A stretch of 64,000 nt of DNA from positions 1 to 64,000 of IMG/VR virus record IMGVR_UViG_3300032240_000412; one strand, written 5' to 3'. The notes under the pieces are model-generated. The model was not told where the DNA came from. It worked only from the letters and a program-made list of their open reading frames with translations, and did not search any database. The position numbers were made by a program, and so were the translations under genes. Below, piece after piece: positions 1-26,458 of this stretch (position 1 is its first letter; each line of letters opens with the position of its first letter). The DNA is from a virus.

Positions 1-2374
1 CTGAAGCATACCACTCAAAGTAACCTGTGTCATTGGCTCGTCCAAAAAACGCAACCCTGTCGCCACCTTTGTAGTAGTGCAGTTTAATACCAATATCTTT
101 CCCATCGTCGGCAATCAGTGGTGATAAGTCCGACGGTGAATGCAAATTAATAATACTATCATTTACTGTTAGATCCACTGATCCAATGTTTGCACTAATA
201 CCTTGTACTGTCAAGTTTCCTTTGATTAATACGTCTTGATTGATTGTGGCTGAGTTGGCGGTTATGGCATTAGCAGATATATTTCCAGTTGAACCTGAAC
301 CTGTTACCGTCAAGCTGTTAACCGTTAAACTTGTTAGTGTACCTAGGCTGGTAATATTGGGTTGTGCCGCTGTGGTAATAGTACCTGACACTGTGGTTGC
401 AGACAAGTTGCCGGTTATGGTTGTTGCAGATACATTGGTAACACCGATGATATTACCGCCTGTGATATTTGCATTTGCACCCAGTCCTGTCAATGACAAT
501 GGCTGAGCAGTATCTATTAATAAAGCTCCGCCTTGGCTGTTGGCGATGCTAATGTTACTGCCAATTGTGGTAATTGTTGCTCCACCCAGCACGATAGAAC
601 TGCCACTTAGATACAAGTCTTTGAATCTATATGTGTTTGATCCTAGATTGTATGTGACATTGGCACTTGGAATAATATTTCCTGTTATGCCAATGTTGCC
701 AACTACTGTTAAGTTACCAGCTGTACTTAGTGTTGTAAATGCACCTGAGCTTGGAAAAGCGTTACCAACTGGAGTGCTGTTCAATGATGCAAAGGTAAAC
801 TGGTCAACAATTAACTGTCCGCCAACAAACAAGTTACCAGAGATGCCCATGCCACCAGCAACCTGAAAAGCACCAGTTGATGCGCTGGTGCTAGGCGAAG
901 TGTTGCTGACAATAACTCTATTTGAAATTGGAAACTGTTCGCCACCAAACCAGGTTGGTCCAATTGGCCCTGTTGCACCTTTGTTGTAATACCCAGTGAC
1001 CATGGTAGCACCAATGTTTTTTCTCAGATAACTTACTGTAACGTTGCTACTGTCGCCGGTGGCCCAGAGTTGTATGTTTCCAGAATTTATGTTTGAGGTA
1101 AATGTTGCTACATCATATCCTGTATTGGATTGAATACTGTTAAATTCAGTATAACTAGCAGAAGTTCCTGACGCCAAAATTGACAGTTCAGAATTTCTGT
1201 AGCGTGAATTGACGTTGTCAGTCAAAGTCAATGAATACGTGACTGAGGTGTTGCCACTCAACGGCAATTGATCTATCAGCTTGGGAGATGTACCTAAATA
1301 TGTGTACACTCCCTTGTACATTGTGTAATCTTGATTGGTATAAATTGTTCCGGCGCCAGCAGTCTGAGCAAAGTTTCGTATTTCTATAATATCTGTTGAC
1401 AGCGGAACTTCAGCAAATGTAATCACGTTCCCAGTTACTGTATAGGCAACATCTGGCTGTTGTAGTGTACCGTTGATACTTACAATTAATCCGATTGATG
1501 TGCCCGGAGCAGTCAATGTAAATTGATTGTCTATACTATTGGGAGTGATAACTTGACTGAAGATTTCGTTTTTGTATCCAACCCACTCTGTTCCGTCAAA
1601 GTATTCAAAAGAGTGCAGATCTCCGTTGTATCTTGCATATCCTTCTGCTGGTGTTGCCGGTCGTTGAGAAGAAGATCCGGCCGGTAGCTGTACTGCACCT
1701 GTGCTTGTTATGTTTAAAATTCCGTTGCCAGGTGCCAAGGTAATATTTGCATTGCCAAATTGTGTGCCAATGGTAGTATTGTTTAATGTTAAGTTGCCAA
1801 TGTTGGATACAACATAACCAATATCTCTAACACCTTTATACCCTGTATATCTTGCACCAGATACATAGACAACGTTGCCAGCCACACCAGATGGTAAATT
1901 ATTGCCAATGAAGTTCAATACCCCAGCTTGATAGTCAAAGAACCATTCGTCGTTGTTTCCAGATCCAGACGGATATAGCTGTGTTCCTTGCGTTAGTACA
2001 TCAGTTGCATTTGCCGGAGCAACATATAATTTTATTTGGTATGTCGATCCGTAACTTGGCGGAATCCAGTCAGCTTTTCTAACGCCACCTGCATTGGTTA
2101 ACCAAGTTCTATTTAAAGTTGAAGTTACGTCCGCTACACATTTAAACGTACTACTTAGTGCTGGAGTGTATAGGGTAACTTGTGCTGTGTTTGCTGTTGG
2201 TATAACATTGGGAATTAGATCGCTACGTAGCCAAATATCTTCTCCACCAATGATAGGAAAACTTGCATACGGTTCGTTGGTAGCATCTTTTAAATCAGGG
2301 GTATCGGTTTTGGCAACTTCGTAACCAACTTTTTTCCACAAGTAATCAATCTGTTGTGTTGAGCTAATTGCCAT
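1..2374 (-). CDS. Virion structural/tail-fibre-like protein, 3' end runs off the window
   Basis: Absent from the ORF track, presumably because it has no stop in the window. ATG at 2374 follows the previous stop directly (MAISSTQQIDYLWKKVGY...), and the same frame reads ...DRVAFFGRANDTGYFEWYAS at the window edge. G/N/T/S-rich. Confidence 0.8.
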   Translation of the reverse strand, partial: MAISSTQQIDYLWKKVGYEVAKTDTPDLKDATNEPYASFPIIGGEDIWLRSDLIPNVIPTANTAQVTLYTPALSSTFKCVADVTSTLNRTWLTNAGGVRKADWIPPSYGSTYQIKLYVAPANATDVLTQGTQLYPSGSGNNDEWFFDYQAGVLNFIGNNLPSGVAGNVVYVSGARYTGYKGVRDIGYVVSNIGNLTLNNTTIGTQFGNANITLAPGNGILNITSTGAVQLPAGSSSQRPATPAEGYARYNGDLHSFEYFDGTEWVGYKNEIFSQVITPNSIDNQFTLTAPGTSIGLIVSINGTLQQPDVAYTVTGNVITFAEVPLSTDIIEIRNFAQTAGAGTIYTNQDYTMYKGVYTYLGTSPKLIDQLPLSGNTSVTYSLTLTDNVNSRYRNSELSILASGTSASYTEFNSIQSNTGYDVATFTSNINSGNIQLWATGDSSNVTVSYLRKNIGATMVTGYYNKGATGPIGPTWFGGEQFPISNRVIVSNTSPSTSASTGAFQVAGGMGISGNLFVGGQLIVDQFTFASLNSTPVGNAFPSSGAFTTLSTAGNLTVVGNIGITGNIIPSANVTYNLGSNTYRFKDLYLSGSSIVLGGATITTIGSNISIANSQGGALLIDTAQPLSLTGLGANANITGGNIIGVTNVSATTITGNLSATTVSGTITTAAQPNITSLGTLTSLTVNSLTVTGSGSTGNISANAITANSATINQDVLIKGNLTVQGISANIGSVDLTVNDSIINLHSPSDLSPLIADDGKDIGIKLHYYKGGDRVAFFGRANDTGYFEWYAS

Positions 2375-18926: not shown

Positions 18927-19769
18927 ATGGAAAATAAAGCCATGAACCCACTTGCCAAGCATTTTAGACAGCCCAAGCTGTATTTGCCGTTGCCCAGCAA
19001 AGGTGAATTCTGGGAAGCAGGATCAATTGATTTACCCGAATCAGGTGAAATACCAATTTACCCCATGACTGCTAAAGATGAAATTACGCTACGCACACCC
19101 GATGCTGTGTTGAACGGATTAGGCACAGTTAGTGTCATACATAGTTGCTGTCCAAACATTCAAGACGCATGGAAAATGCCCAGCATTGATCTAGATGCTG
19201 TACTGATTGCAATTCGTATTGCCAGTTATGGCGAGTATATGTCTTTTGCTACCAAGTGTCCAAAATGCAGTACTGAACACGATTACGATGCTGATATGCG
19301 TATTGTGCTAGACAGTATTAAAAAGCCCGACTATGCTACTCCGTTAGTAGTAGAAAACATGCAGATCAAAATTCGTCCGCAAAGTTACTTCAGTGCCAAT
19401 GCCACAAGTCAAATTCAATTTGAAGAACAGCGTATTATTCGTGCCATGAACGAAGATACACCGGATGATATCAAAAGCAAAAAATTCCAGTCACACCTGA
19501 ATGCATTGGTTGATTTGAATATCAAGACATTGGCAGACAGTACTGAGTCAATTACCATTGGTGCAGAAGTTGTAACTGACAAAGCATTTTTAACTGAGTT
19601 CTATCAAAACTGCGACACCAGTGTAATCAAACTAGTTCAAGCACGGTTGGCAGACATTGCCAAACAGGCCTCAATTCCAGCCATTGATGTCAGATGTGAC
19701 AACTGCGAAAATGAATTCAAAGTAGACATTACATTTGAGTACGCAAGTTTTTTCGCCAACGGCTCTTGA
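18927..19769 (+). CDS. Baseplate hub assembly/tail chaperone (gp26-like)
   Basis: LPSKG, PMTAKDE and DLDAVLIAIRIASYG motifs; two CxxC pairs; ends ...SFFANGS. Confidence 0.75.
   Translation: MENKAMNPLAKHFRQPKLYLPLPSKGEFWEAGSIDLPESGEIPIYPMTAKDEITLRTPDAVLNGLGTVSVIHSCCPNIQDAWKMPSIDLDAVLIAIRIASYGEYMSFATKCPKCSTEHDYDADMRIVLDSIKKPDYATPLVVENMQIKIRPQSYFSANATSQIQFEEQRIIRAMNEDTPDDIKSKKFQSHLNALVDLNIKTLADSTESITIGAEVVTDKAFLTEFYQNCDTSVIKLVQARLADIAKQASIPAIDVRCDNCENEFKVDITFEYASFFANGS
19748..19754 (+). other. Candidate -1 ribosomal frameshift heptamer T TTT TTC
   Basis: X XXY YYZ in the correct phase of the 280-aa ORF; the -1 frame is open into the 19766-19984 ORF. Confidence 0.65.
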
Positions 19770-19984
19770 GTCTAGATAACGATCAAATCGTTAGCTTACT
19801 TGAACAATACGAAAATGAGTCAAGAGCCATAAGAGAAGAAGCAATGAGAAACTCGTGGTACATGCGTGGCGGACTTTCTTATGAAACAGCACTAGAACTC
19901 AGCCCAGACGAACGCAAGATAGTAGCCAAGATTATCAAAGAAAATCTTGAAACTACCAAAAAAGCCAATCTACCATTCTTTTAA
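19766..19984 (+). CDS. gp51-like small chaperone segment, probably made as a frameshift fusion
   Basis: WYMRGGLSYETALELSPDERK; TTG start with no SD. Confidence 0.65.
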   Translation: MSLDNDQIVSLLEQYENESRAIREEAMRNSWYMRGGLSYETALELSPDERKIVAKIIKENLETTKKANLPFF

Positions 19985-19987
19985 ATT

Positions 19988-20377
19988 ATGTCACAGACAG
20001 TATACGCACCGGTCAGCATAGGAGAGTTGATTGATAAAATCACAATCCTGGAAATTAAATCTAAAAATGCAGAGCAACGCAATGACTACAGCAAACTTGC
20101 TAATATTACTACAGAGCTGTTGTTATTGAACAATATTTTAAGTAACTTGGATATTCCTGAGCAAGTGACACAGCTAAGACAGCATCTGCTTGATGTCAAT
20201 GGTGAACTTTGGAATATTGAAGATGCCAAACGTCAATGCGAAGTAGCACAGACATTTGATGAAAAGTTTATTCAATTGGCTAGATCTGTTTATCTTAAAA
20301 ACGATCTACGTGCAACACTTAAAAAACAAATCAATCATTTAACCAATAGTGCAATAGTAGAAGAAAAGATTTATTAA
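19988..20377 (+). CDS. DUF6165-like protein
   Basis: PVSIGELIDKITILEIK, LWNIED, FIQLARSVY..ND.R and IVEEK motifs (recalled family signature). Confidence 0.7.
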   Translation: MSQTVYAPVSIGELIDKITILEIKSKNAEQRNDYSKLANITTELLLLNNILSNLDIPEQVTQLRQHLLDVNGELWNIEDAKRQCEVAQTFDEKFIQLARSVYLKNDLRATLKKQINHLTNSAIVEEKIY

Positions 20378-20787
20378 CTCTTTTGAGACTTACTACGTAA
20401 GTCTATTGATTCGCTTTGCTCATCAATTTTTTCTTCTTTAAGTATCATCTAGATTAATTGGTCATAATTCACCCTCTACGGGTGAATTAACTTTGCATCA
20501 TCTGAGTAGCACAGTCATCTATTCTAAAGAGATTTATACTTACGTATAACGGAGGCGGTTGACCGGTACCCCCTACTCTAGCTTCACATGTCAACGGAAC
20601 CCTAGTAATCCGGAATAGACCCAAATCCTATAAGCTGAGGTTGTATCTTTTTCACATTGCCTCGACCTTTTCAGCCTGAAGTTAGCTTTTTTCTTGCAAC
20701 GCACTAGTCTAACGGCACAGCCCTACCTGTACAATCTCAAAGTGAGTCGAGGTACCCCGACCAAACAAAGTTGCTATGTGATGTAAA
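20378..20787 (-). ncRNA. Candidate large structured non-coding RNA/DNA element
   Basis: 410-nt ORF-free gap, the largest in the window. Multiple hairpins, long-range helices, a GNRA loop, a possible pseudoknot and G-U pairs that favour the minus strand. Confidence 0.6.
20405..20432 (+). terminator. Possible terminator for the plus-strand chaperone operon
   Basis: ATTGAT...ATCAAT stem followed by a T tract; a perfect 8-bp hairpin lies just upstream at 20386-20404. Confidence 0.4.
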
Positions 20788-21573
20788 TTAGTTTAAACGG
20801 AGAAACAGATTGCCTGAGAGTGCTAGTAGACAGTAACGTTCGATGCGATCTAAAGTTGTGTCTTGGTAATTGTAATTTTGAGTTGTGACGTAGTGTCTAA
20901 AGTTTGCCGATGGTATGTATTCGGTATTACGTTCTAGCCATGTGGTGTAGTAAGTTTTGCAATCGTTGGAGATGAGGAAGCCTAGATGTTCTAAATTAGA
21001 TTTTAAGTGATGCCAATTTGATAGTATTGTGTCTGTGAGTAAAAATTTTGTAGTTTTAAAGTTCCGAAGGTTTTCGATATTTTTCACTGCTACGTTGTAA
21101 GTTTCGTAATCTAGTGCTTCCTGTGAGTACTTATCATTTGACCTCAGTGCCAAATGTAATTTGTTATTACTATCTAGCTCGTTGCGCCAAACTCTTTTTG
21201 CCATGTGTGATTTAACTATAAATGCAAAATACGGCCAACTGGGCTGTATATCAATTATGTTAAATTCGTTGAAGTCATTTAAAAAGCCATGAAATCGAAA
21301 AATATAGTGTTGTTGTTCTGCGTTTAGTTGTCTTAGTGTGTTTAAAATTTTATCTCTTACTGTAACATCTTCGTAGTCAGTCATTCTACCTGTTAGGGCA
21401 ACAAGCTCAGGATACTGCTCTGCAAGCTCGTTAAATCCTGTGACAGTACGCCCAGTTTCTGCAAATTCTTTAAAAGCTATACAGGATTTTAGTGTTGGGT
21501 CAGAATCCAGTATTATTTTTAATACAGTATCCCCGCCGCCACCACCGGGCCAGCGCAGTAATGTTACAGCCAT
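20788..21573 (-). CDS. Hypothetical enzyme with N-terminal Gly-rich loop (sulfotransferase/P-loop-like)
   Basis: LLRWPGGGGGDTV at the N-terminus; RFH motif downstream. Confidence 0.4.
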   Translation of the reverse strand: MAVTLLRWPGGGGGDTVLKIILDSDPTLKSCIAFKEFAETGRTVTGFNELAEQYPELVALTGRMTDYEDVTVRDKILNTLRQLNAEQQHYIFRFHGFLNDFNEFNIIDIQPSWPYFAFIVKSHMAKRVWRNELDSNNKLHLALRSNDKYSQEALDYETYNVAVKNIENLRNFKTTKFLLTDTILSNWHHLKSNLEHLGFLISNDCKTYYTTWLERNTEYIPSANFRHYVTTQNYNYQDTTLDRIERYCLLALSGNLFLRLN

Positions 21574-22079
21574 TATTTACAGCGATCCTTTACAGCGTCA
21601 CTGTTATATTTCCAAAATTCATCGTAATCTTGTAACCACCAAGTGCCGTGCTTGATACTGTTATAGATACTGTAGTTCTGCTCTGGGGCAATTACAGGAT
21701 CTTGTGTGGCAATAAACTTGCCTTTACGGTTGAATTTCATGATTAAAATACTAAAATCGCCAGGATCTGCTACCTCTAGCAGTTGACCTAGCCACGACTC
21801 TAGTATCTTAACTTCTCCTGAATACAGTTGATGAAACGGAAAATCAGCATAGCTCTTGCACTCGGCATTGAACTTTGGAAAACTTTGTCCAGGAACAATG
21901 TCGCCTTTGAAGTTTCGAATTTGGCCTTCGTGTAAAAACTCCTTACGAAAATTATTTTTACCCCCAACATACGCACCAGAACCTGGTACACGGATAAACT
22001 TTTCTCCGTATAGTGCTGTTAAGTGATCTGCAACTTGGCGTTCCCAAGCATTGCCTTTGGCCTTTTGTGGACTTGTCAT
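21573..22079 (-). CDS. Holliday junction resolvase, PD-(D/E)XK Hjc-like
   Basis: KGNAWER...GDI...AECK catalytic pattern. Confidence 0.8.
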   Translation of the reverse strand: MTSPQKAKGNAWERQVADHLTALYGEKFIRVPGSGAYVGGKNNFRKEFLHEGQIRNFKGDIVPGQSFPKFNAECKSYADFPFHQLYSGEVKILESWLGQLLEVADPGDFSILIMKFNRKGKFIATQDPVIAPEQNYSIYNSIKHGTWWLQDYDEFWKYNSDAVKDRCK

Positions 22080-22957
22080 ATACTGTAATTAGCTAATTCA
22101 ATTTCACGTTGCCATTGATTTGAAAAACTGGTTTTGCCTGCTCGAGTACCACAAGTTGATTGACATACTGGATCAGGGTTAGTAGTCCAACTGGATTTTA
22201 ATTGATCAAACCATTGTACCAAATTGGGATTGTGGTTGTCTATGCCTTGCCAACAGCAAGGATGCCAACGACCACGTGCATCAACATATAAACTTTGTTC
22301 TTTTAATGCATGACATGCTATATCAACGGATTCCACAACAGGATCTTGCCAGCCCTTTGGCGGCTTGATCCACTCAACTGGTATGCTATTATGTCGCTTA
22401 CTCACTTTGGCTCTAAACCATTTAAAGCCCAACTGTTTGGCAAGTTGGGCACAAGCATCAACTTGATGTTCGTTGTGTTCAAAAACCAACATGTCCCAAT
22501 GGGCTGATCCGCCTTTGTTAATAAATGTCTTGGCATTGTTCATTAGCTTGGGCCAAAGCACACGGCGTCGATAAATCTCGTTGGTATCTTCTAGGCCATC
22601 TATGCTAAAAACCACATAGTCGTTGGGTCGATTAAACACTGTGGCCAATTCTTCCCACCAGAACATATCTCGCAATGCACCGTTGCTGTTCATGCCCAGG
22701 GTAATGTTGGGATTAAGTTTTCTAAAATATCGACATATTTCAATGGTGTCACGTGCGGCGGCCGGATCTCCGTAGTTGCCACACATAAACATCTTGTCTA
22801 ACTGTTTAATAAATTCCGCAGGAAACATCTGCTTGACTGCGTCTATACTTAACTCGCTGGGAATAAACTTGCCGTAGGTTCTTGGACATTGTGGGCATTC
22901 GGCCTGACACAACGTAGTTGGTTCTAAATGTAAAACTCTAATGTTGCTCATAATCAT
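22076..22957 (-). CDS. Radical SAM protein with C-terminal Twitch/SPASM-like Cys cluster
   Basis: CQAECPQC, CGNYGDP and FSIDG motifs; C...PCC...CQSTC at the C-terminus. Confidence 0.9.
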   Translation of the reverse strand: MIMSNIRVLHLEPTTLCQAECPQCPRTYGKFIPSELSIDAVKQMFPAEFIKQLDKMFMCGNYGDPAAARDTIEICRYFRKLNPNITLGMNSNGALRDMFWWEELATVFNRPNDYVVFSIDGLEDTNEIYRRRVLWPKLMNNAKTFINKGGSAHWDMLVFEHNEHQVDACAQLAKQLGFKWFRAKVSKRHNSIPVEWIKPPKGWQDPVVESVDIACHALKEQSLYVDARGRWHPCCWQGIDNHNPNLVQWFDQLKSSWTTNPDPVCQSTCGTRAGKTSFSNQWQREIELANYSI

Positions 22958-24000
22958 TTAATAAACTTTGGTATACGCAAATCTGTATGATGTGTGCATC
23001 GCTCTTGCTCACATACAACAGGCGCAGTTGGCCATACTATGGTATCGTTGTGCAAATTACCAAGATAACTTTGATTGCACAATGCAATAGTTGTTTCGCC
23101 ATCGGGTCTAATATGTAAACTGTTAACACCAGCATAACAGGTCCAGCCCTTGGACTTGGTCACAGCACTGTTGATCAACTCTGTTGAATGAGCATATTCA
23201 ACAGTACCGTCGTTCCAAATACCAATAACATCTTTGTCATCAGTTTGGAAATTAACATTATCTCTAATAAACTCCAATTCTTCTTTGGAATAGTACTGTT
23301 CCATGTAATAATCAAAGTTGGTCAACAAGATCTTCTTGCTATCGTAAAGTCCATGTATGTTGGCTTTTTCGCCAGGACGAACAACATGAACAATATTGGG
23401 TTTGATCTGCGGATTAATCACTTTGTAGATAACGTTGGCTTCAGCCAACTTTAATACGTTACCGGCCTGTTGTACAATATCCAGCTGTCCTGCTTCCAGC
23501 ATCAAAATAGCTTTAACTCGTCCTGGACCATATTCTCTGGTCAGCGAAATTATTTTTTCAACTTTTTCAGCAACAGAGCTGTGTAAGTTTTCAAAGTGTA
23601 TGCTTAGGTTCAAATCATGTACATAATTGCTGGACATAACCCTGTGATATATTTTTAACGGAGCACTGGTGTTGGATGCAATACTGCATTGTGCAGTAGA
23701 ACTTAGAGATTTTAAATGTTTCAAAAACTCAGGCAAGTCTTTGACAATAAATGGTTCGCCACCGGTAAAGTCATAGTATATTTGTTTGTTAATACCAGTT
23801 GCATACTGGTGCAACTTATTGGCCTGTTCTATTAGAAACTCTACAGTTGGTATGTCGCTAACATTGTCATGATAGGCCGCAGAACAATAACTACAATCAT
23901 AATTGCAACGTATTAGCATACGCCACAGTATTTCAATGTAGTGTGTTCTTGGGCGAGTCATGTTAGCCATGCGCCCACTAATAGCCATTAGTTTTTTCAT
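22954..24000 (-). CDS. Radical SAM protein with C-terminal Twitch-like domain
   Basis: CNYDCSYC and TGGEP motifs; CYAG...C...CEQERC at the C-terminus. Confidence 0.9.
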   Translation of the reverse strand: MKKLMAISGRMANMTRPRTHYIEILWRMLIRCNYDCSYCSAAYHDNVSDIPTVEFLIEQANKLHQYATGINKQIYYDFTGGEPFIVKDLPEFLKHLKSLSSTAQCSIASNTSAPLKIYHRVMSSNYVHDLNLSIHFENLHSSVAEKVEKIISLTREYGPGRVKAILMLEAGQLDIVQQAGNVLKLAEANVIYKVINPQIKPNIVHVVRPGEKANIHGLYDSKKILLTNFDYYMEQYYSKEELEFIRDNVNFQTDDKDVIGIWNDGTVEYAHSTELINSAVTKSKGWTCYAGVNSLHIRPDGETTIALCNQSYLGNLHNDTIVWPTAPVVCEQERCTHHTDLRIPKFIK

Positions 24001-25766
24001 TTTATATCTACATCGGTGTTGTAGCTGGTGTAACCATTTTCTTTGACCACATGCAGGGTATTGTTGACACGACCTGCCAGTTCATCTTTGTGCGATACTA
24101 GCCAAATACTCTTGTTGGCTTCTCTACTCATCTTCTTGAGAATAGCCAAACTGTTTTCAACTCCGGAACTATCCATGCCGCTGTCAACCAACTCATCAAT
24201 AAACAACAAGTTGATGGGTTGATACAGACTTTCCCAAACATCGCGGAATGCCCAACTCAACGACAGGATCAAGCGATTGCGTTCACCTCGACTCAAGTTG
24301 TCAAAGTCCAAATCTCTGCCCAGTTCTGTGATAGCCACAGTCAAGTCGTTGTTGAACTTGACCGTATGCGGCAAGCCGATGCGATCCAGATACTGCCCCA
24401 ATCTGGCATTCAAGTAACTCAAGTTTTGATCAATGATACGTTTACGGATAAAACTATCTTTGTTGGTCAACAGTTTTAACAAAAACTCTTGATGGTCTTT
24501 AAGATTGACCAACTCGTTCATTACAGCGTAGTCAATTTCTTCTACACCTTGCTCTTGCATTTCTTTAATTTGTTCTGTGTATGGATCGTGTTCGTTTTGT
24601 TTAGCAGATAATTGTGCTAAAATACTGCCCATACTTGATCGATGTTCAAATGCATCGCTTTCTCGATCATAGAACACCTGCGGCTGTGCTCCTAGTTTGC
24701 CCAGTGCTTTGAGTGCTTCAGTGTGTTCTAACCACTGTGTGTTGGTTGCCAGTGCTTGTAAAGATGTTTCTTGTAGTTGTTTTTGTTTTTCTTCCAGTAG
24801 CTTTTCTTGTTTGTCATCGTGAAAAGACTGTCCGCAACTGTGACAGGTATGATTTTCTAAACTAGCAATATCTGATTTTAGTTTTTCAATTTCTTTGAGT
24901 TCTCGAGCTTCGTCGAGCTCGCAACGTTTGACCCAATTTGTTAAGTCTTTAATTTGTTTTGCTTTGTCGTTATACACTGTCAGTGCCTGGTGTGCCAACA
25001 GCTCTGACTCAATATCCAAAGCATTGAGCTCATCAAATGCACTTTGTAATTTAGCAATATCTTCGTTGTGTTTGTTTTGCCAAAGAGTTTGTCTGCGAAT
25101 TAAAGCATCAATTTGATCTTGAATGCGTTTGTTAGCGTCAGTGACAGCCTTGATACGATATTCTTCTGATGTGATGGCTTCCTTGGTTGCCTTGCTTAGT
25201 TCTTTAAGATTGTCGGCCTTTTCGCTGAGTAAAGTAATACCCAGCAACTGTTCAATGATTGTGCGTTGATCATTGGCCTTTAAGCTAAGAAAAGGTTCAG
25301 TGTAAGTATTCAGCGCCACAATGTGTTTGAACATGTCATGGCTCATGCCCAACATGCGTTCAATTTCTTGCTGTGTTTCTCTTGAATCGCCCTGGGCATC
25401 GTCAGTGATTTCTTTTTCAACTTCACCAACAAAAAACTTCATGATACCAGGCTTGCGCCCTCGTTCGATGCGATAACTAATACCGTCTTTTTCAAAATCA
25501 ATACAAACCAACATGCCTTTGGCATTGGTCTTGTTGATCAAGTTGTCTTTTTTAATGTTGGTTAAGGCGTTGCCGTAAAGGGCATAGCTCAGAGCATTGA
25601 TAATGGTTGTTTTACCTGTGCCGTTACGTGCTCCGCTGTCGTCACCTCCTAGGTCCAAGTTTTCGCCTAGTACCAGGGTCAAGTCGTTACGGTCAAAGTT
25701 AACAGCTTGAGTAGCATTACCTACGCTCATGAAGTTTTTAACAGTTAGATCTTTTATTTTAAACAT
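23997..25766 (-). CDS. gp46: Recombination endonuclease ATPase subunit (gp46/Rad50/SbcC)
   Basis: Walker A NGTGKT, zinc hook CHSC, signature LSRGE, Walker B LFIDE, and SH motif. Confidence 0.95.
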   Translation of the reverse strand: MFKIKDLTVKNFMSVGNATQAVNFDRNDLTLVLGENLDLGGDDSGARNGTGKTTIINALSYALYGNALTNIKKDNLINKTNAKGMLVCIDFEKDGISYRIERGRKPGIMKFFVGEVEKEITDDAQGDSRETQQEIERMLGMSHDMFKHIVALNTYTEPFLSLKANDQRTIIEQLLGITLLSEKADNLKELSKATKEAITSEEYRIKAVTDANKRIQDQIDALIRRQTLWQNKHNEDIAKLQSAFDELNALDIESELLAHQALTVYNDKAKQIKDLTNWVKRCELDEARELKEIEKLKSDIASLENHTCHSCGQSFHDDKQEKLLEEKQKQLQETSLQALATNTQWLEHTEALKALGKLGAQPQVFYDRESDAFEHRSSMGSILAQLSAKQNEHDPYTEQIKEMQEQGVEEIDYAVMNELVNLKDHQEFLLKLLTNKDSFIRKRIIDQNLSYLNARLGQYLDRIGLPHTVKFNNDLTVAITELGRDLDFDNLSRGERNRLILSLSWAFRDVWESLYQPINLLFIDELVDSGMDSSGVENSLAILKKMSREANKSIWLVSHKDELAGRVNNTLHVVKENGYTSYNTDVDIK

Positions 25767-26458
25767 AGATGCTCGTAAATTAAGTTGGCTACATAGCTGT
25801 GGCCTTCTTTTGTTAAATGCCCTGTTGCAGTTACCGGAAACAGATTGTTGACTTTAATAGACGCAATGTAAAAATCGTTCCATTTAACAAAAGAGTCAGT
25901 GTCGATCAGACTTACATAATACTGTATTTCGTTCCACTCGTCAATGATTTGATTATCGTTCATGACTTCTAGATTAATAAGTTTGGAAAAAGATGCCGGT
26001 CCGTTTAACCAAACTGACAAATTGTTTTCTAACGCATTGATCATTACGTATTTTTTACCATGACTTTTTAACAAAGTTTGTAATTGAATAATTTGTTGTA
26101 GCCAAAGTTTAAAAGCATACAACTCGTTGTGCCAATGACTATAAAGTACCTTGCCCCAATTTTGATAGTGGGATTTACTTTCGTAATTGGGGTGTGATAA
26201 ACTTGGATTAAAATTTATTTCGTGGTTATTAGTTGAATCATAAAAAGTATATCTACTAGTACTGGTCCATCCAATTAAGAATAAATCAAAATCTTTTAAG
26301 TTACGAATAGTCTGATATACAGTGCGCGAGTTGGTACCGCCATCAACAGCATGATTCAGTAAGGGCGCACTCAGGCGCTCAGCAATCAGTTGCGGCCAGG
26401 CGTTATTGTTTAAATGCAAGCCCGCGGTCAGACTGCATCCATTTGCATAGATTCTCAC
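25754..26458 (-). CDS. SGNH/GDSL hydrolase-like protein
   Basis: YANGCSLT block I, N-x-A-x-x-G block II, and C-terminal GHLTKEGH. Confidence 0.7.
   Translation of the reverse strand: MRIYANGCSLTAGLHLNNNAWPQLIAERLSAPLLNHAVDGGTNSRTVYQTIRNLKDFDLFLIGWTSTSRYTFYDSTNNHEINFNPSLSHPNYESKSHYQNWGKVLYSHWHNELYAFKLWLQQIIQLQTLLKSHGKKYVMINALENNLSVWLNGPASFSKLINLEVMNDNQIIDEWNEIQYYVSLIDTDSFVKWNDFYIASIKVNNLFPVTATGHLTKEGHSYVANLIYEHLCLK

What the first reader, a model, noticed from the sequence alone, without database searches (positions are those of the whole stretch)
20378..20787. ~400-nt highly structured non-coding element: candidate undescribed large phage ncRNA with a pseudoknot
Seen: this is the only large ORF-free gap in an otherwise densely packed window, and it is rich in complementary segments. 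They include a perfect 10-bp stem TAATTCACCC/GGGTGAATTA (20465-20489), TTATAC/GTATAA closing a GUAA GNRA loop on the minus strand (20534-20549), a GC-rich GGGGG..CGG-UCAA-CCG..CCUCC hairpin (20551-20573), a long-range TCTATTC/GAATAGA helix (20518-20524 with 20613-20619), and a 5' domain closed by GCAAC/GTTGC (20696-20700 with 20770-20774) that contains GUCGGG-GUAC-CUCGAC. The GUCAAC at the hairpin apex (20558-20563) is exactly complementary to GUUGAC (20590-20595), giving a possible pseudoknot. AGAUGA occurs three times (near 20444, 20497 and 20514) and GGGGUACC twice. G-U pairs and the GNRA loop work on the minus strand, co-oriented with the gp55-gp47-gp46-resolvase operon. Inference: an ornate ncRNA in the style of the phage ROOL/GOLLD RNAs, though I cannot match it to a family. 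An alternative is an R-loop-primed replication origin.
Basis: partly seen in the sequence, partly recalled or inferred. Interest (0 to 1): 0.85.

Follow-up and report, generated by a model that had tools for sequence, protein, structure and literature searches.

The report
Knotted twin-box RNA of jumbo phages
The gene-free gap encodes a real, intricately folded, doubly knotted non-coding RNA of about 395 bases, part of a large family in uncultured giant T4-like phages; only another branch's front domain is catalogued and its function is unknown.

Summary
Window 20386-20780 (minus strand) is one member of a family of more than 150 copies (122 distinct cores) in IMG/VR phage contigs. The family always sits behind the gp47-gp46 recombination-nuclease operon and faces the baseplate-hub genes.

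Both proposed pseudoknots, GUUGAC/GUCAAC and UCUAUUC/GAAUAGA, covary strongly. On 76 sequences the core is 87% paired, with a covariation score of 0.49 against 0.19 when shuffled. The 10-bp stem, the GNRA hairpin and the 5' domain also hold. G-U pairs favour the minus strand.

Three points fail:
- It is not the only ORF-free gap: 1015-2093 is larger.
- The inner CGG/CCG stem conflicts with PK1.
- Folding energy is no better than shuffled sequence (z about -1).

Rfam 15 does not match the window. In the largest sister group the front third is Rfam's orphan motif Polynucleobacter-1 (RF01718); the window carries a different 5' domain.

The oddest feature is two 12-nt boxes, AYYY-N-GAU-N-A-N, that change between phages but stay identical within each RNA (93% against 50% when shuffled). 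I found no reader for them.

Function is unknown. My best guess is a trans-acting scaffold; an RNA-primed origin is the main rival. This scan found the family earlier on other DNA.

The parts
20386..20780 (-). Whole RNA gene, about 395 nt. The 5' end is not mapped and lies between 20775 and 20787. The last hairpin ends at 20386.
   Evidence: nhmmer and profile hits span it in 62 + ~95 loci. There is no conserved ORF. Covariation.
20696..20774 (-). Lineage-specific 5' domain. P1 is 20770-20774 with 20696-20700. The P2 hairpin is 20746-20761. P3 is 20741-20744 with 20702-20705. P3b is 20729-20732 with 20715-20718. It contains the conserved UUGAG and GGAU(U)CU letters.
   Evidence: Alignment A3: covariation 0.336 against 0.171 shuffled, 0 of 500 shuffles as high. 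P1 is kept only in the window's own group (GCAAC/GUUGC, CCAAC/GUUGG). There is no RF01718 match.
20667..20676 (-). Conserved single-stranded linker GGCUGAAAAG that opens the core.
   Evidence: A11, A12 and G14 are invariant and G5, A10, A15 nearly so in 76 sequences.
20637..20663 (-). P5 hairpin (GAGG...CCUC with an inner UGUG/UACA).
   Evidence: The outer P5 pairs are 85.5% paired, and all three show double changes.
20599..20635 (-). P6 hairpin. Its loop carries the 5' strand of PK2 (20613-20619).
   Evidence: P6: 8 pairs, all with compensatory changes, 84% paired.
20590..20595 (-). PK1 5' strand GUUGAC, preceded by the invariant CCG. It pairs with 20558-20563.
   Evidence: PK1 is 97.9% paired. 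Two of its pairs change on both sides in 28 and 22 of 76 sequences (U-A to C-G, G-C to A-U).
20552..20573 (-). P8 hairpin (GGGGG/CCUCC). Its 13-nt loop UACCGGUCAACCG holds the PK1 3' strand GUCAAC (20558-20563).
   Evidence: P8 is 96.7% paired. GGUAC and ACCGCC are invariant.
20528..20579 (-). P7 (AGAG 20576-20579 with CUCU 20528-20531), which encloses P8 and P9.
   Evidence: P7 is 89.7% paired and all five pairs show compensatory changes.
20535..20548 (-). P9 optional hairpin with a GUAA (GNRA) loop.
   Evidence: Kept as GUC-GUAA-GAC, GUG-GAAA-CAC and UGUC-UUAC-GACA in close relatives. It is absent from most of the main group.
20518..20524 (-). PK2 3' strand GAAUAGA, pairing with 20613-20619.
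   Evidence: PK2 is 89.8% paired and all seven pairs show compensatory changes. Examples: CAUGUAU/AUACAUG and UCAGUA/UACUGA.
20496..20507 (-). Box 1 of the twin boxes (ACUC-A-GAU-G-A-U-G), preceded by GAUGAC at 20514-20519.
   Evidence: Identity to box 2 at the 4 variable positions is 92.9% against 49.5 +/- 2.7% shuffled, with 20 haplotypes. Corrected mutual information reaches 1.07 with same-letter fractions of 0.83-0.91.
20465..20489 (-). P11, the perfect 10-bp hairpin between the two boxes.
   Evidence: 90.3% paired, with 6 of 8 pairs showing compensatory changes.
20443..20454 (-). Box 2 of the twin boxes (AUCU-A-GAU-G-A-U-A), preceded by UAUGAC at 20461-20466.
20405..20439 (-). An A-rich tract, then the P12 hairpin (20405-20427): a 6-bp stem, tandem G-A/A-G, two G-C pairs and an apical loop (AAA here, GNRA in most relatives). 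Read on the plus strand it is a hairpin followed by a T-run, i.e. a terminator-like site for the converging operon.
   Evidence: The inner pairs are 99.4% paired, with G-C to A-U changes. The U-G wobbles in the outer stem fit only the minus strand. The T-run on the plus strand is seen.
20386..20404 (-). P13, the terminal 8-bp hairpin with a C-GUA-G loop. No U-run follows it on the minus strand.
   Evidence: 96.5% paired and all eight pairs show compensatory changes.
20788..21573 (-). A 261-aa ORF of no known family, inserted between the resolvase gene and the RNA. This is context, not part of the RNA.
   Evidence: It is present only in the window and in L002/L003. Elsewhere the RNA starts right after the nuclease gene. 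No Pfam or PHROG match.
21573..22079 (-). PDDEXK_15 / RusA-like resolvase gene (context).
   Evidence: Pfam PF24608 at 6.7e-22 and phrog_244.

Best explanation
The gap is the gene for a stable, autonomously folding non-coding RNA of about 395 nt, read from the minus strand.

Shown:
- It belongs to a modular family with three parts. The 5' domain differs between lineages: here P1-P3, in the largest sister group the Rfam motif Polynucleobacter-1.
- The core (P5-P8) is conserved and locked by two pseudoknots.
- The 3' module shows the same 12-nt word twice, on either side of hairpin P11, and ends in two very stable hairpins.

Inferred:
- The RNA is made as the tail of the gp47-gp46(-radical SAM-resolvase-ORF261) transcript, because the gap leaves no room for a promoter and no sigma-70-like promoter is seen on the minus strand next to its 5' end.
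- Its 3' end is then set by the P12/P13 hairpins.
- It acts in trans as a folded scaffold. The knotted core gives it shape, and the twin boxes bind two copies, or a dimer, of one partner that co-evolves with them. I think a nucleic acid is more likely than a protein as that partner.

My odds: a real, selected RNA structure 0.95; the trans-acting twin-box scaffold reading about 0.4.
For: - Conservation without coding: homologues occur in 62 of 80 resolvase loci and in about 95 of 120 loci fetched by an RNA motif alone. They are always in the same orientation behind the recombination operon, and no ORF is shared.
- Structure: the core with both pseudoknots is 87.0% paired, covariation 0.489 against 0.191 shuffled (0 of 500 as high) and 0.08-0.12 for slid partners.
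- The 3' module is 87.8% paired, 0.437 against 0.152. The 5' domain scores 0.336 against 0.171.
- Strand: 211 G-U/U-G cells against 78 A-C/C-A. The tandem G-A plus GNRA apex of P12 makes sense only on the minus strand.
- Twin boxes: 92.9% identity at the variable positions against 49.5% shuffled, with 20 haplotypes. They are mutual-information partners of each other only, with no Watson-Crick partner inside the RNA.
- The spacing of the boxes is 47-61 nt with no helical phasing, which points to the RNA level and not the DNA level.
- A second subgroup has different twin boxes (GGCAAUGU) that also change together.
- No sigma-70-like promoter lies on the minus strand next to the 5' end.
Against: - The transcript and its ends are therefore inferred.
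- Folding energy is not better than shuffled sequence.
- No partner for the boxes was found. A U/G-rich strand complementary to both boxes exists in many members but is not kept when it or the boxes change.
- A search of +/-5 kb around 101 loci for the complement of each locus's own word gave 73 hits against 49 expected, with no consistent position.
- No cultured phage carries the RNA, so there are no genetics.
- The A-tract plus P12 reads as a terminator for the opposite operon, so part of the 3' module could be conserved for that reason.
Confidence: 0.4

Rival explanations
1. RNA-primed replication origin. The transcript folds, stays hybridised to its template as an R-loop, and is processed to prime DNA synthesis, as with ColE1 RNA II or the T4 origins oriF and oriG. 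The twin boxes or the terminal hairpins would be the hand-over point.
For: - The locus sits next to replication and recombination genes (gp46, gp47, resolvase).
- There is an A/T-rich tract just before the terminal hairpins.
- P13 has C-GNA-G type loops and almost only Watson-Crick pairs, so it would also form in single-stranded DNA.
- Earlier reports of this scan raised the same idea.
- From established knowledge: T4-type phages use R-loop origins, and ColE1 RNA II is a folded pre-primer.
Against: - Flanking genes converge on the element, so forks leaving it would meet transcription head-on.
- There is no GC-skew switch at the locus.
- Box spacing shows no helical phasing.
- Two covarying pseudoknots and a variable 5' domain are more than known R-loop origins need.
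- No middle-promoter motif was identified.
Confidence: 0.2
2. A cis-acting 3'-UTR element. It would be a folded cap that protects the recombination-operon mRNA from 3' exonucleases, and/or a two-way terminator and insulator where the two operons collide.
For: - It fills the whole space from the upstream stop codon to the converging stop codon in all lineages.
- It ends in two stable hairpins, and the A-tract plus P12 reads as hairpin plus T-run on the other strand.
- Weinberg et al. 2010 flagged Polynucleobacter-1 as possibly cis-regulatory.
Against: - Roughly 330 nt of knotted, covarying core and co-varying twin boxes are far more than a terminator or stabiliser needs.
- The upstream gene differs between lineages (PDDEXK resolvase, SegE-type GIY-YIG, a 261-aa ORF, radical SAM) while the RNA stays the same. 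It is therefore not tuned to one mRNA.
Confidence: 0.15
3. A ribozyme or ligand-sensing RNA, either self-processing or acting on another RNA. The double-pseudoknot core would be the active site or pocket.
For: - Invariant single-stranded letters lie next to the pseudoknots (CCG, GGUAC, ACCGCC, AAAAG).
- Compact double pseudoknots are typical of ribozymes and aptamers (general knowledge).
Against: - No match to any Rfam ribozyme or riboswitch, even at E up to 10.
- It lies 3' of genes, not 5'.
- No cleavage or ligand data exist.
Confidence: 0.1
4. Not an RNA at all, but a DNA-level element (iterons, a packaging site, a homing-endonuclease target) or a decayed gene.
For: - The direct repeats evolve in concert, as iterons do.
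- Free-standing nuclease genes sit next to it.
Against: - Compensatory base-pair changes with G-U asymmetry fit a single strand.
- The repeat spacing is variable.
- No ORF is conserved.
Confidence: 0.03

Closest known systems
Polynucleobacter-1 RNA motif (Rfam RF01718; Weinberg et al. 2010, Genome Biol 11:R31, PMC2864571)
   Same: In the largest sister group the 136 nt directly upstream of the shared knotted core match RF01718 at 98-120 bits against a gathering score of 37. The catalogued motif is therefore the front domain of the same RNA family. The habitat (fresh water) and the unknown function are also the same.
   Different: - The window's RNA has no RF01718 match at any threshold tried. 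Its 5' domain (P1-P3) is a different fold.
- The conserved core, both pseudoknots, the twin boxes and the terminal hairpins lie outside the Rfam model.
- The 2010 paper lists the motif under Burkholderiales and as possibly cis-regulatory, not as a phage RNA.
GOLLD (RF01998) and ROOL (RF03087), large ornate RNAs of phages and prophages
   Same: Large, multi-domain, pseudoknotted RNAs carried by phages. They are conserved in metagenomes and their function is unknown.
   Different: No model match. This RNA is smaller (about 400 nt against about 580-800). It is not next to tRNA genes; there are none in the window. Its fixed place is behind gp46. Multimer formation, shown for GOLLD and ROOL by cryo-EM (PMC12286853), was not tested here.
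ColE1 RNA II and the T4 oriF/oriG R-loop primers
   Same: A folded transcript next to replication and recombination genes, with an A/T-rich stretch and hairpins at its 3' end.
   Different: No origin activity, promoter type or RNase H site is known here. The genes converge on it, and there is no skew switch. Neither the ColE1 nor the T4 primers have a twin-box feature.
The four RNA-seq-defined ncRNAs of jumbo phage PA5oct (Lood et al. 2020, PMC7318152)
   Same: PA5oct has the closest gp46 (49% identity) among cultured phages. It makes abundant unexplained ncRNAs of 236-619 nt.
   Different: None of them, nor any other part of the PA5oct, SCTP-2 or Phosso genomes, matches the core model. Their loci differ: two lie in the terminal repeat.

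Membership tests
Rfam RF01718 Polynucleobacter-1 | Match to the covariance model at or above 37 bits. | tested here: not met
   No hit in the window at gathering, nor at E up to 10 over 20200-20950. Main-group relatives L004, L157, L015 and L240 score 98-120 bits. Relatives L022, L024, L054, L076, L018, L029 and L047 also lack it.
Twin-box / extended Polynucleobacter-1 jumbo-phage RNA family (uncatalogued; defined in this scan) | PK1: the strand after the invariant CCG pairs with the loop of the GGUAC...ACCGCC hairpin. | tested here: met
   In the window, GUUGAC 20590-20595 pairs with GUCAAC 20558-20563. Across the family it is 97.9% paired with double changes. Core model R1 hits the window at 53.8 bits, E = 4e-9.
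Twin-box / extended Polynucleobacter-1 jumbo-phage RNA family (uncatalogued; defined in this scan) | PK2: the loop of P6 pairs with the strand just before the first GUGAC. | tested here: met
   Window 20613-20619 pairs with 20518-20524. Across the family it is 89.8% paired, and all 7 pairs show double changes.
Twin-box / extended Polynucleobacter-1 jumbo-phage RNA family (uncatalogued; defined in this scan) | Two identical variable words on either side of hairpin P11, each preceded by (G/A)UGAC. | tested here: met
   Window 20496-20507 and 20443-20454 share AGAUGAU.
Twin-box / extended Polynucleobacter-1 jumbo-phage RNA family (uncatalogued; defined in this scan) | Synteny: co-oriented downstream of gp46, and converging with the gp26/gp51-like hub genes. 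| tested here: met
   Window gene order. The same order is seen in loci fetched by the RNA motif alone.
GOLLD / ROOL | Match to RF01998 or RF03087, with tRNA or prophage neighbourhood. | tested here: not met
   No hit. No tRNA in 64 kb.
Group I intron, RNase P RNA, tmRNA | Match to the Rfam or ARAGORN model; an intron must also interrupt a gene. | tested here: not met
   No Rfam hit at E up to 10. ARAGORN finds nothing. The element lies between two stop codons.
R-loop replication origin (T4 oriF/oriG type) | A persistent RNA-DNA hybrid that primes leading-strand synthesis, downstream of a middle-mode promoter. | not testable with these tools
   Only indirect evidence: no skew switch and converging genes. 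It needs replication mapping.
RNA-guided nuclease system (RNA plus the adjacent nuclease) | Obligate pairing of one nuclease family with the RNA. | tested here: not met
   The upstream gene is a PDDEXK resolvase in some lineages, a SegE-type GIY-YIG in the main group, and a 261-aa ORF here. The twin-box type does not follow the nuclease type.

The most novel reading that the evidence does not exclude
The twin boxes are programmable words read by base pairing. On this reading the RNA is a sequence-addressed guide or primer that brings a phage DNA transaction to a site that co-varies with the boxes. That transaction could be replication start, or recombination and processing by the neighbouring gp46/gp47 and junction nucleases. 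This would be a new kind of RNA-directed step in the life cycle of T4-like jumbo phages.
Probability: 0.12. Interest if true: 0.9.

Novelty: new variant of a known kind. Interest (0 to 1): 0.7.

Why it matters
Large, intricately folded RNAs of unknown function are rare, and past examples have led to new biochemistry. This one is widespread in uncultured freshwater jumbo phages: more than 150 copies were fetched before the scans hit their limits. It has a fixed place behind the recombination genes.

Its structure is unusually well supported, with two pseudoknots and about 75 covarying pairs. Its feature with no precedent I know of is two short words that mutate quickly but are kept identical within each molecule.

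The finding also shows that an orphan Rfam motif from 2010 is only the optional front domain of a much larger phage RNA. That changes how the motif should be annotated. The twin boxes give a concrete handle for finding the partner and so the function, through pull-downs and compensatory mutants.

Tried and rejected
- **Rfam.** No family for the window at gathering or at E up to 10. The weak hits (mir-4637, Poribacteria-1, DPB, osmY) are noise.
- **tRNA/tmRNA.** ARAGORN found none.
- **Thermodynamic test.** z is about -1 on both strands, so it is uninformative.
- **Cultured phages.**
  - blastn of three family members against 50,697 phage records found nothing.
  - nhmmer and core model R1 found nothing next to the resolvase of PA5oct, SCTP-2 or Phosso.
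  - R1 found nothing anywhere in those three genomes or in PA5oct's four RNA-seq ncRNAs.
- **A cis partner for the twin boxes.** A U/G-rich strand (AUUGUUUGA in the main group, AUUUGGGU in the window's P6 loop) is complementary to both boxes. It is replaced by unrelated letters in many members with unchanged boxes. Only 1 of the 5 GCAU-box members listed compensates. I rejected it as unsupported.
- **A reader within +/-5 kb.** There were 73 own-word complements against 49 expected. They show no common position, and several lie inside coding sequence shared by related loci. Inconclusive.
- **Complements in the window.** Only two extra 10-mers, about chance level.
- **Hairpin P10 around box 1.** Weak support: mean run 4.30 against 3.80 +/- 0.09. 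Box 2 has no equivalent.
- **RNA-nuclease partnership.** Not supported, because non-homologous genes occupy the upstream slot.
- **ORF261 against the PA5oct 'structural protein' after its resolvase.** No similarity.
- **Host from GTDB genomes.**
  - True hits fall only on short contigs binned into freshwater MAGs: Polynucleobacter, Flavobacteriales and two Bacteroidetes bins.
  - These are probably mis-binned phage DNA.
  - A Chromohalobacter hit lies inside an 854-aa ORF and is false.
- **GC skew.** No switch at the locus.
- **MAFFT structural modes.** They are not installed, so alignments are by sequence and some helices of divergent groups are out of register. This lowers the paired percentages rather than raising them.

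Full report
**Where it lies.** Window 20378-20787 sits between two converging stop codons. On the plus strand a DUF6165 gene ends at 20377. On the minus strand a 261-aa ORF with no family ends at 20788.

Further along the minus strand come these genes:
- a PDDEXK_15/RusA-like resolvase
- two radical SAM genes
- gp46 (SbcC-like)
- a DUF6071 gene
- gp47 (Metallophos)

On the other side lie a gp26/gp51-like baseplate-hub pair and a 72-aa ORF. The record is a 96-kb IMG/VR contig that CheckV rates 27% complete. Its gp46 is 49% identical to that of the jumbo phage PA5oct, and 44-47% to those of Phosso and Atu_ph07. The window therefore comes from an uncultured jumbo T4-like phage.

Three points do not hold:
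- The gap is not the only large ORF-free stretch; 1015-2093 is larger.
- Folding energy is no better than shuffled sequence on either strand (z = -1.04 and -1.14).
- The inner CGG-UCAA-CCG stem conflicts with the pseudoknot that actually covaries.

Rfam 15 finds nothing at gathering score and nothing meaningful at E up to 10. ARAGORN finds no tRNA or tmRNA.

**Is it conserved?** Using the resolvase protein as bait I fetched 80 related IMG/VR loci. Iterative nhmmer found the element in 62 of them, always on the resolvase strand and usually starting right after its stop codon. No ORF is shared across the gap.

In these loci the resolvase is mostly absent. What stays constant is the position: co-oriented behind gp46 and converging with the 72-aa ORF and hub genes.

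The gene directly upstream is a minimal SegE-type GIY-YIG nuclease in the main group (PF19835, E about 1e-34). It is the PDDEXK resolvase in the window's relatives, and an extra 261-aa ORF in the window and L002/L003. In all I have 151 copies with 122 distinct cores.

**Structure.** I number the RNA so that position n equals window 20788 - n.

*Core.* On 76 sequences less than 90% identical (alignment A1) I tested P5, P6, P7, P8 and the two pseudoknots:
- 87.0% of cells are standard pairs, against 69.0% when shuffled.
- The covariation score is 0.489 against 0.191 +/- 0.008 (0 of 500 shuffles as high). Sliding the partners by 1-3 columns gives 0.08-0.12.
- PK1 (window 20590-20595 with 20558-20563) is 97.9% paired. 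Two of its pairs switch on both sides in 28 and 22 sequences.
- PK2 (20613-20619 with 20518-20524) is 89.8% paired, and all seven pairs show double changes.

*5' domain.* P1-P3 is shared with a second subgroup apart from P1 itself. It scores 0.336 against 0.171.

*Strand.* G-U/U-G cells outnumber A-C/C-A cells 211 to 78. The apex of P12 has tandem G-A pairs and two covarying G-C pairs. They close a GNRA loop in most members and an AAA loop in the window. This apex makes sense only on the minus strand.

**The family is modular.**
- The core and the 3' module are shared.
- The 5' domain differs between lineages.
- In the main group its 136 nt match Rfam RF01718, Polynucleobacter-1, at 98-120 bits. 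I took this lead from earlier reports of this scan and checked it here.
- The window and members of six other sampled subgroups have no RF01718 match.
- Weinberg et al. 2010 list that motif as a probable RNA, possibly cis-regulatory, from Burkholderiales and freshwater or estuary metagenomes.
- The only catalogued piece of this family is thus an optional front domain that the window lacks.

**Twin boxes.** Two 12-nt stretches, at 20496-20507 and 20443-20454, flank P11. Each follows a (G/A)UGAC motif by 6-7 nt, and both share the pattern A-Y-Y-Y-N-G-A-U-N-A-N.
- Across the family the N positions vary (20 haplotypes), but the two boxes of one RNA agree at 92.9% of those positions. After shuffling the figure is 49.5 +/- 2.7% (maximum 59%).
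- In the mutual-information scan the boxes are each other's best partners with same-letter statistics, and they have no Watson-Crick partner among the aligned columns.
- The boxes are 47-61 nt apart with every value in between, so DNA helical phasing is not conserved.
- The second subgroup has different boxes (GGCAAUGU) that also change together.

I looked for a reader and found none that holds up:
- A U/G-rich strand complementary to both boxes is not maintained.
- A search of the flanks gave only a weak excess with no consistent position.

**What it is not.**
- It matches no Rfam ribozyme, riboswitch, intron, RNase P, tmRNA, GOLLD or ROOL model.
- It is not tied to one nuclease family.
- It is not found in PA5oct, SCTP-2 or Phosso, nor in PA5oct's four RNA-seq ncRNAs.
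- No other cultured phage matched by blastn.
- In GTDB genomes the true hits fall only on short contigs binned into freshwater MAGs, so the host is unknown.

**How it probably works.** What is shown is a selected, strand-specific, knotted RNA fold with two identical displayed words and a hairpin-capped 3' end. The rest is inference.
- The RNA fills the gap from stop codon to stop codon, and no sigma-70-like promoter lies on the minus strand next to its 5' end. It is therefore most simply the tail of the recombination-operon transcript, trimmed back to P13.
- The A-tract plus P12 also reads as a terminator for the opposite operon.
- The size and rigidity of the core and the concerted change of the boxes argue for a trans-acting scaffold that binds two copies or a dimer of a co-evolving partner (about 0.4).
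- An RNA-primed origin remains possible (about 0.2). In its favour are the replication-gene neighbourhood, the A/T-rich tract and a P13 hairpin that would also form in DNA. Against it are the converging genes and the absence of a skew switch.
- A purely cis 3'-UTR role (0.15) and a ribozyme or sensor role (0.1) are less likely.
- A DNA-only element is nearly excluded by the covariation.

Expression could not be checked here.

**Novelty and verdict.** The window's RNA is an uncatalogued variant of a large phage RNA family. The literature I could search holds only the Polynucleobacter-1 fragment of that family. Earlier reports of this scan described the same family on other DNA, and my tests agree with them. 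Function remains open, and the twin boxes are the most promising handle.

Noticed in passing
window 1015-2093: A second and larger stretch (1,079 nt) with no ORF of 60 aa or more. It has no Rfam match at E up to 1 and no repeats. It could hold another non-coding element.
   Followed up: partly
window 18927-19984 (+): The baseplate-hub gene (PF12322, 280 aa) overlaps a 72-aa ORF by 4 nt. Earlier reports of this scan describe a -1 frameshift joining gp26-like and gp51-like parts in relatives. I did not examine it here.
   Followed up: no
window 20788-21573 (-): A 261-aa ORF with no Pfam or PHROG family sits between the resolvase and the RNA, only in the window and L002/L003. It looks like an insertion into a hot spot. 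It shows no similarity to the PA5oct structural protein at the matching position.
   Followed up: partly
L157:2337-2771, L127:7533-7976 and other main-group loci: A minimal 142-151 aa SegE-type GIY-YIG nuclease (PF19835) takes the slot held by the PDDEXK resolvase in the window's lineage. Non-homologous small nucleases thus sit at the same place before the RNA.
   Followed up: partly
window 22076-24000 (-): Two radical SAM genes lie inside the gp46-resolvase recombination operon. In relatives they are present in some loci and absent in others.
   Followed up: no
window 25754-26458 (-): A DUF6071 gene sits between gp47 (Metallophos) and gp46.
   Followed up: no
L076, L064, L070 and other loci of the second subgroup (e.g. 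L076:4564-4996): This subgroup shares the 5' domain and core of the window's RNA but has its own twin boxes (GGCAAUGU). They change together: in L070 both read GCAAGUA.
   Followed up: partly
A2 columns 113-124, e.g. L129:1896-2051: Many relatives carry a small hairpin with a C-UUCG-G type loop between box 2 and the A-tract. The window lacks it.
   Followed up: no
L240 (Polynucleobacter MAG contig), L236, L237, L239, L246: Full-length copies of the RNA core lie on short contigs binned into freshwater Polynucleobacter and Bacteroidota MAGs. This probably explains why the 2010 motif was named after Polynucleobacter.
   Followed up: partly
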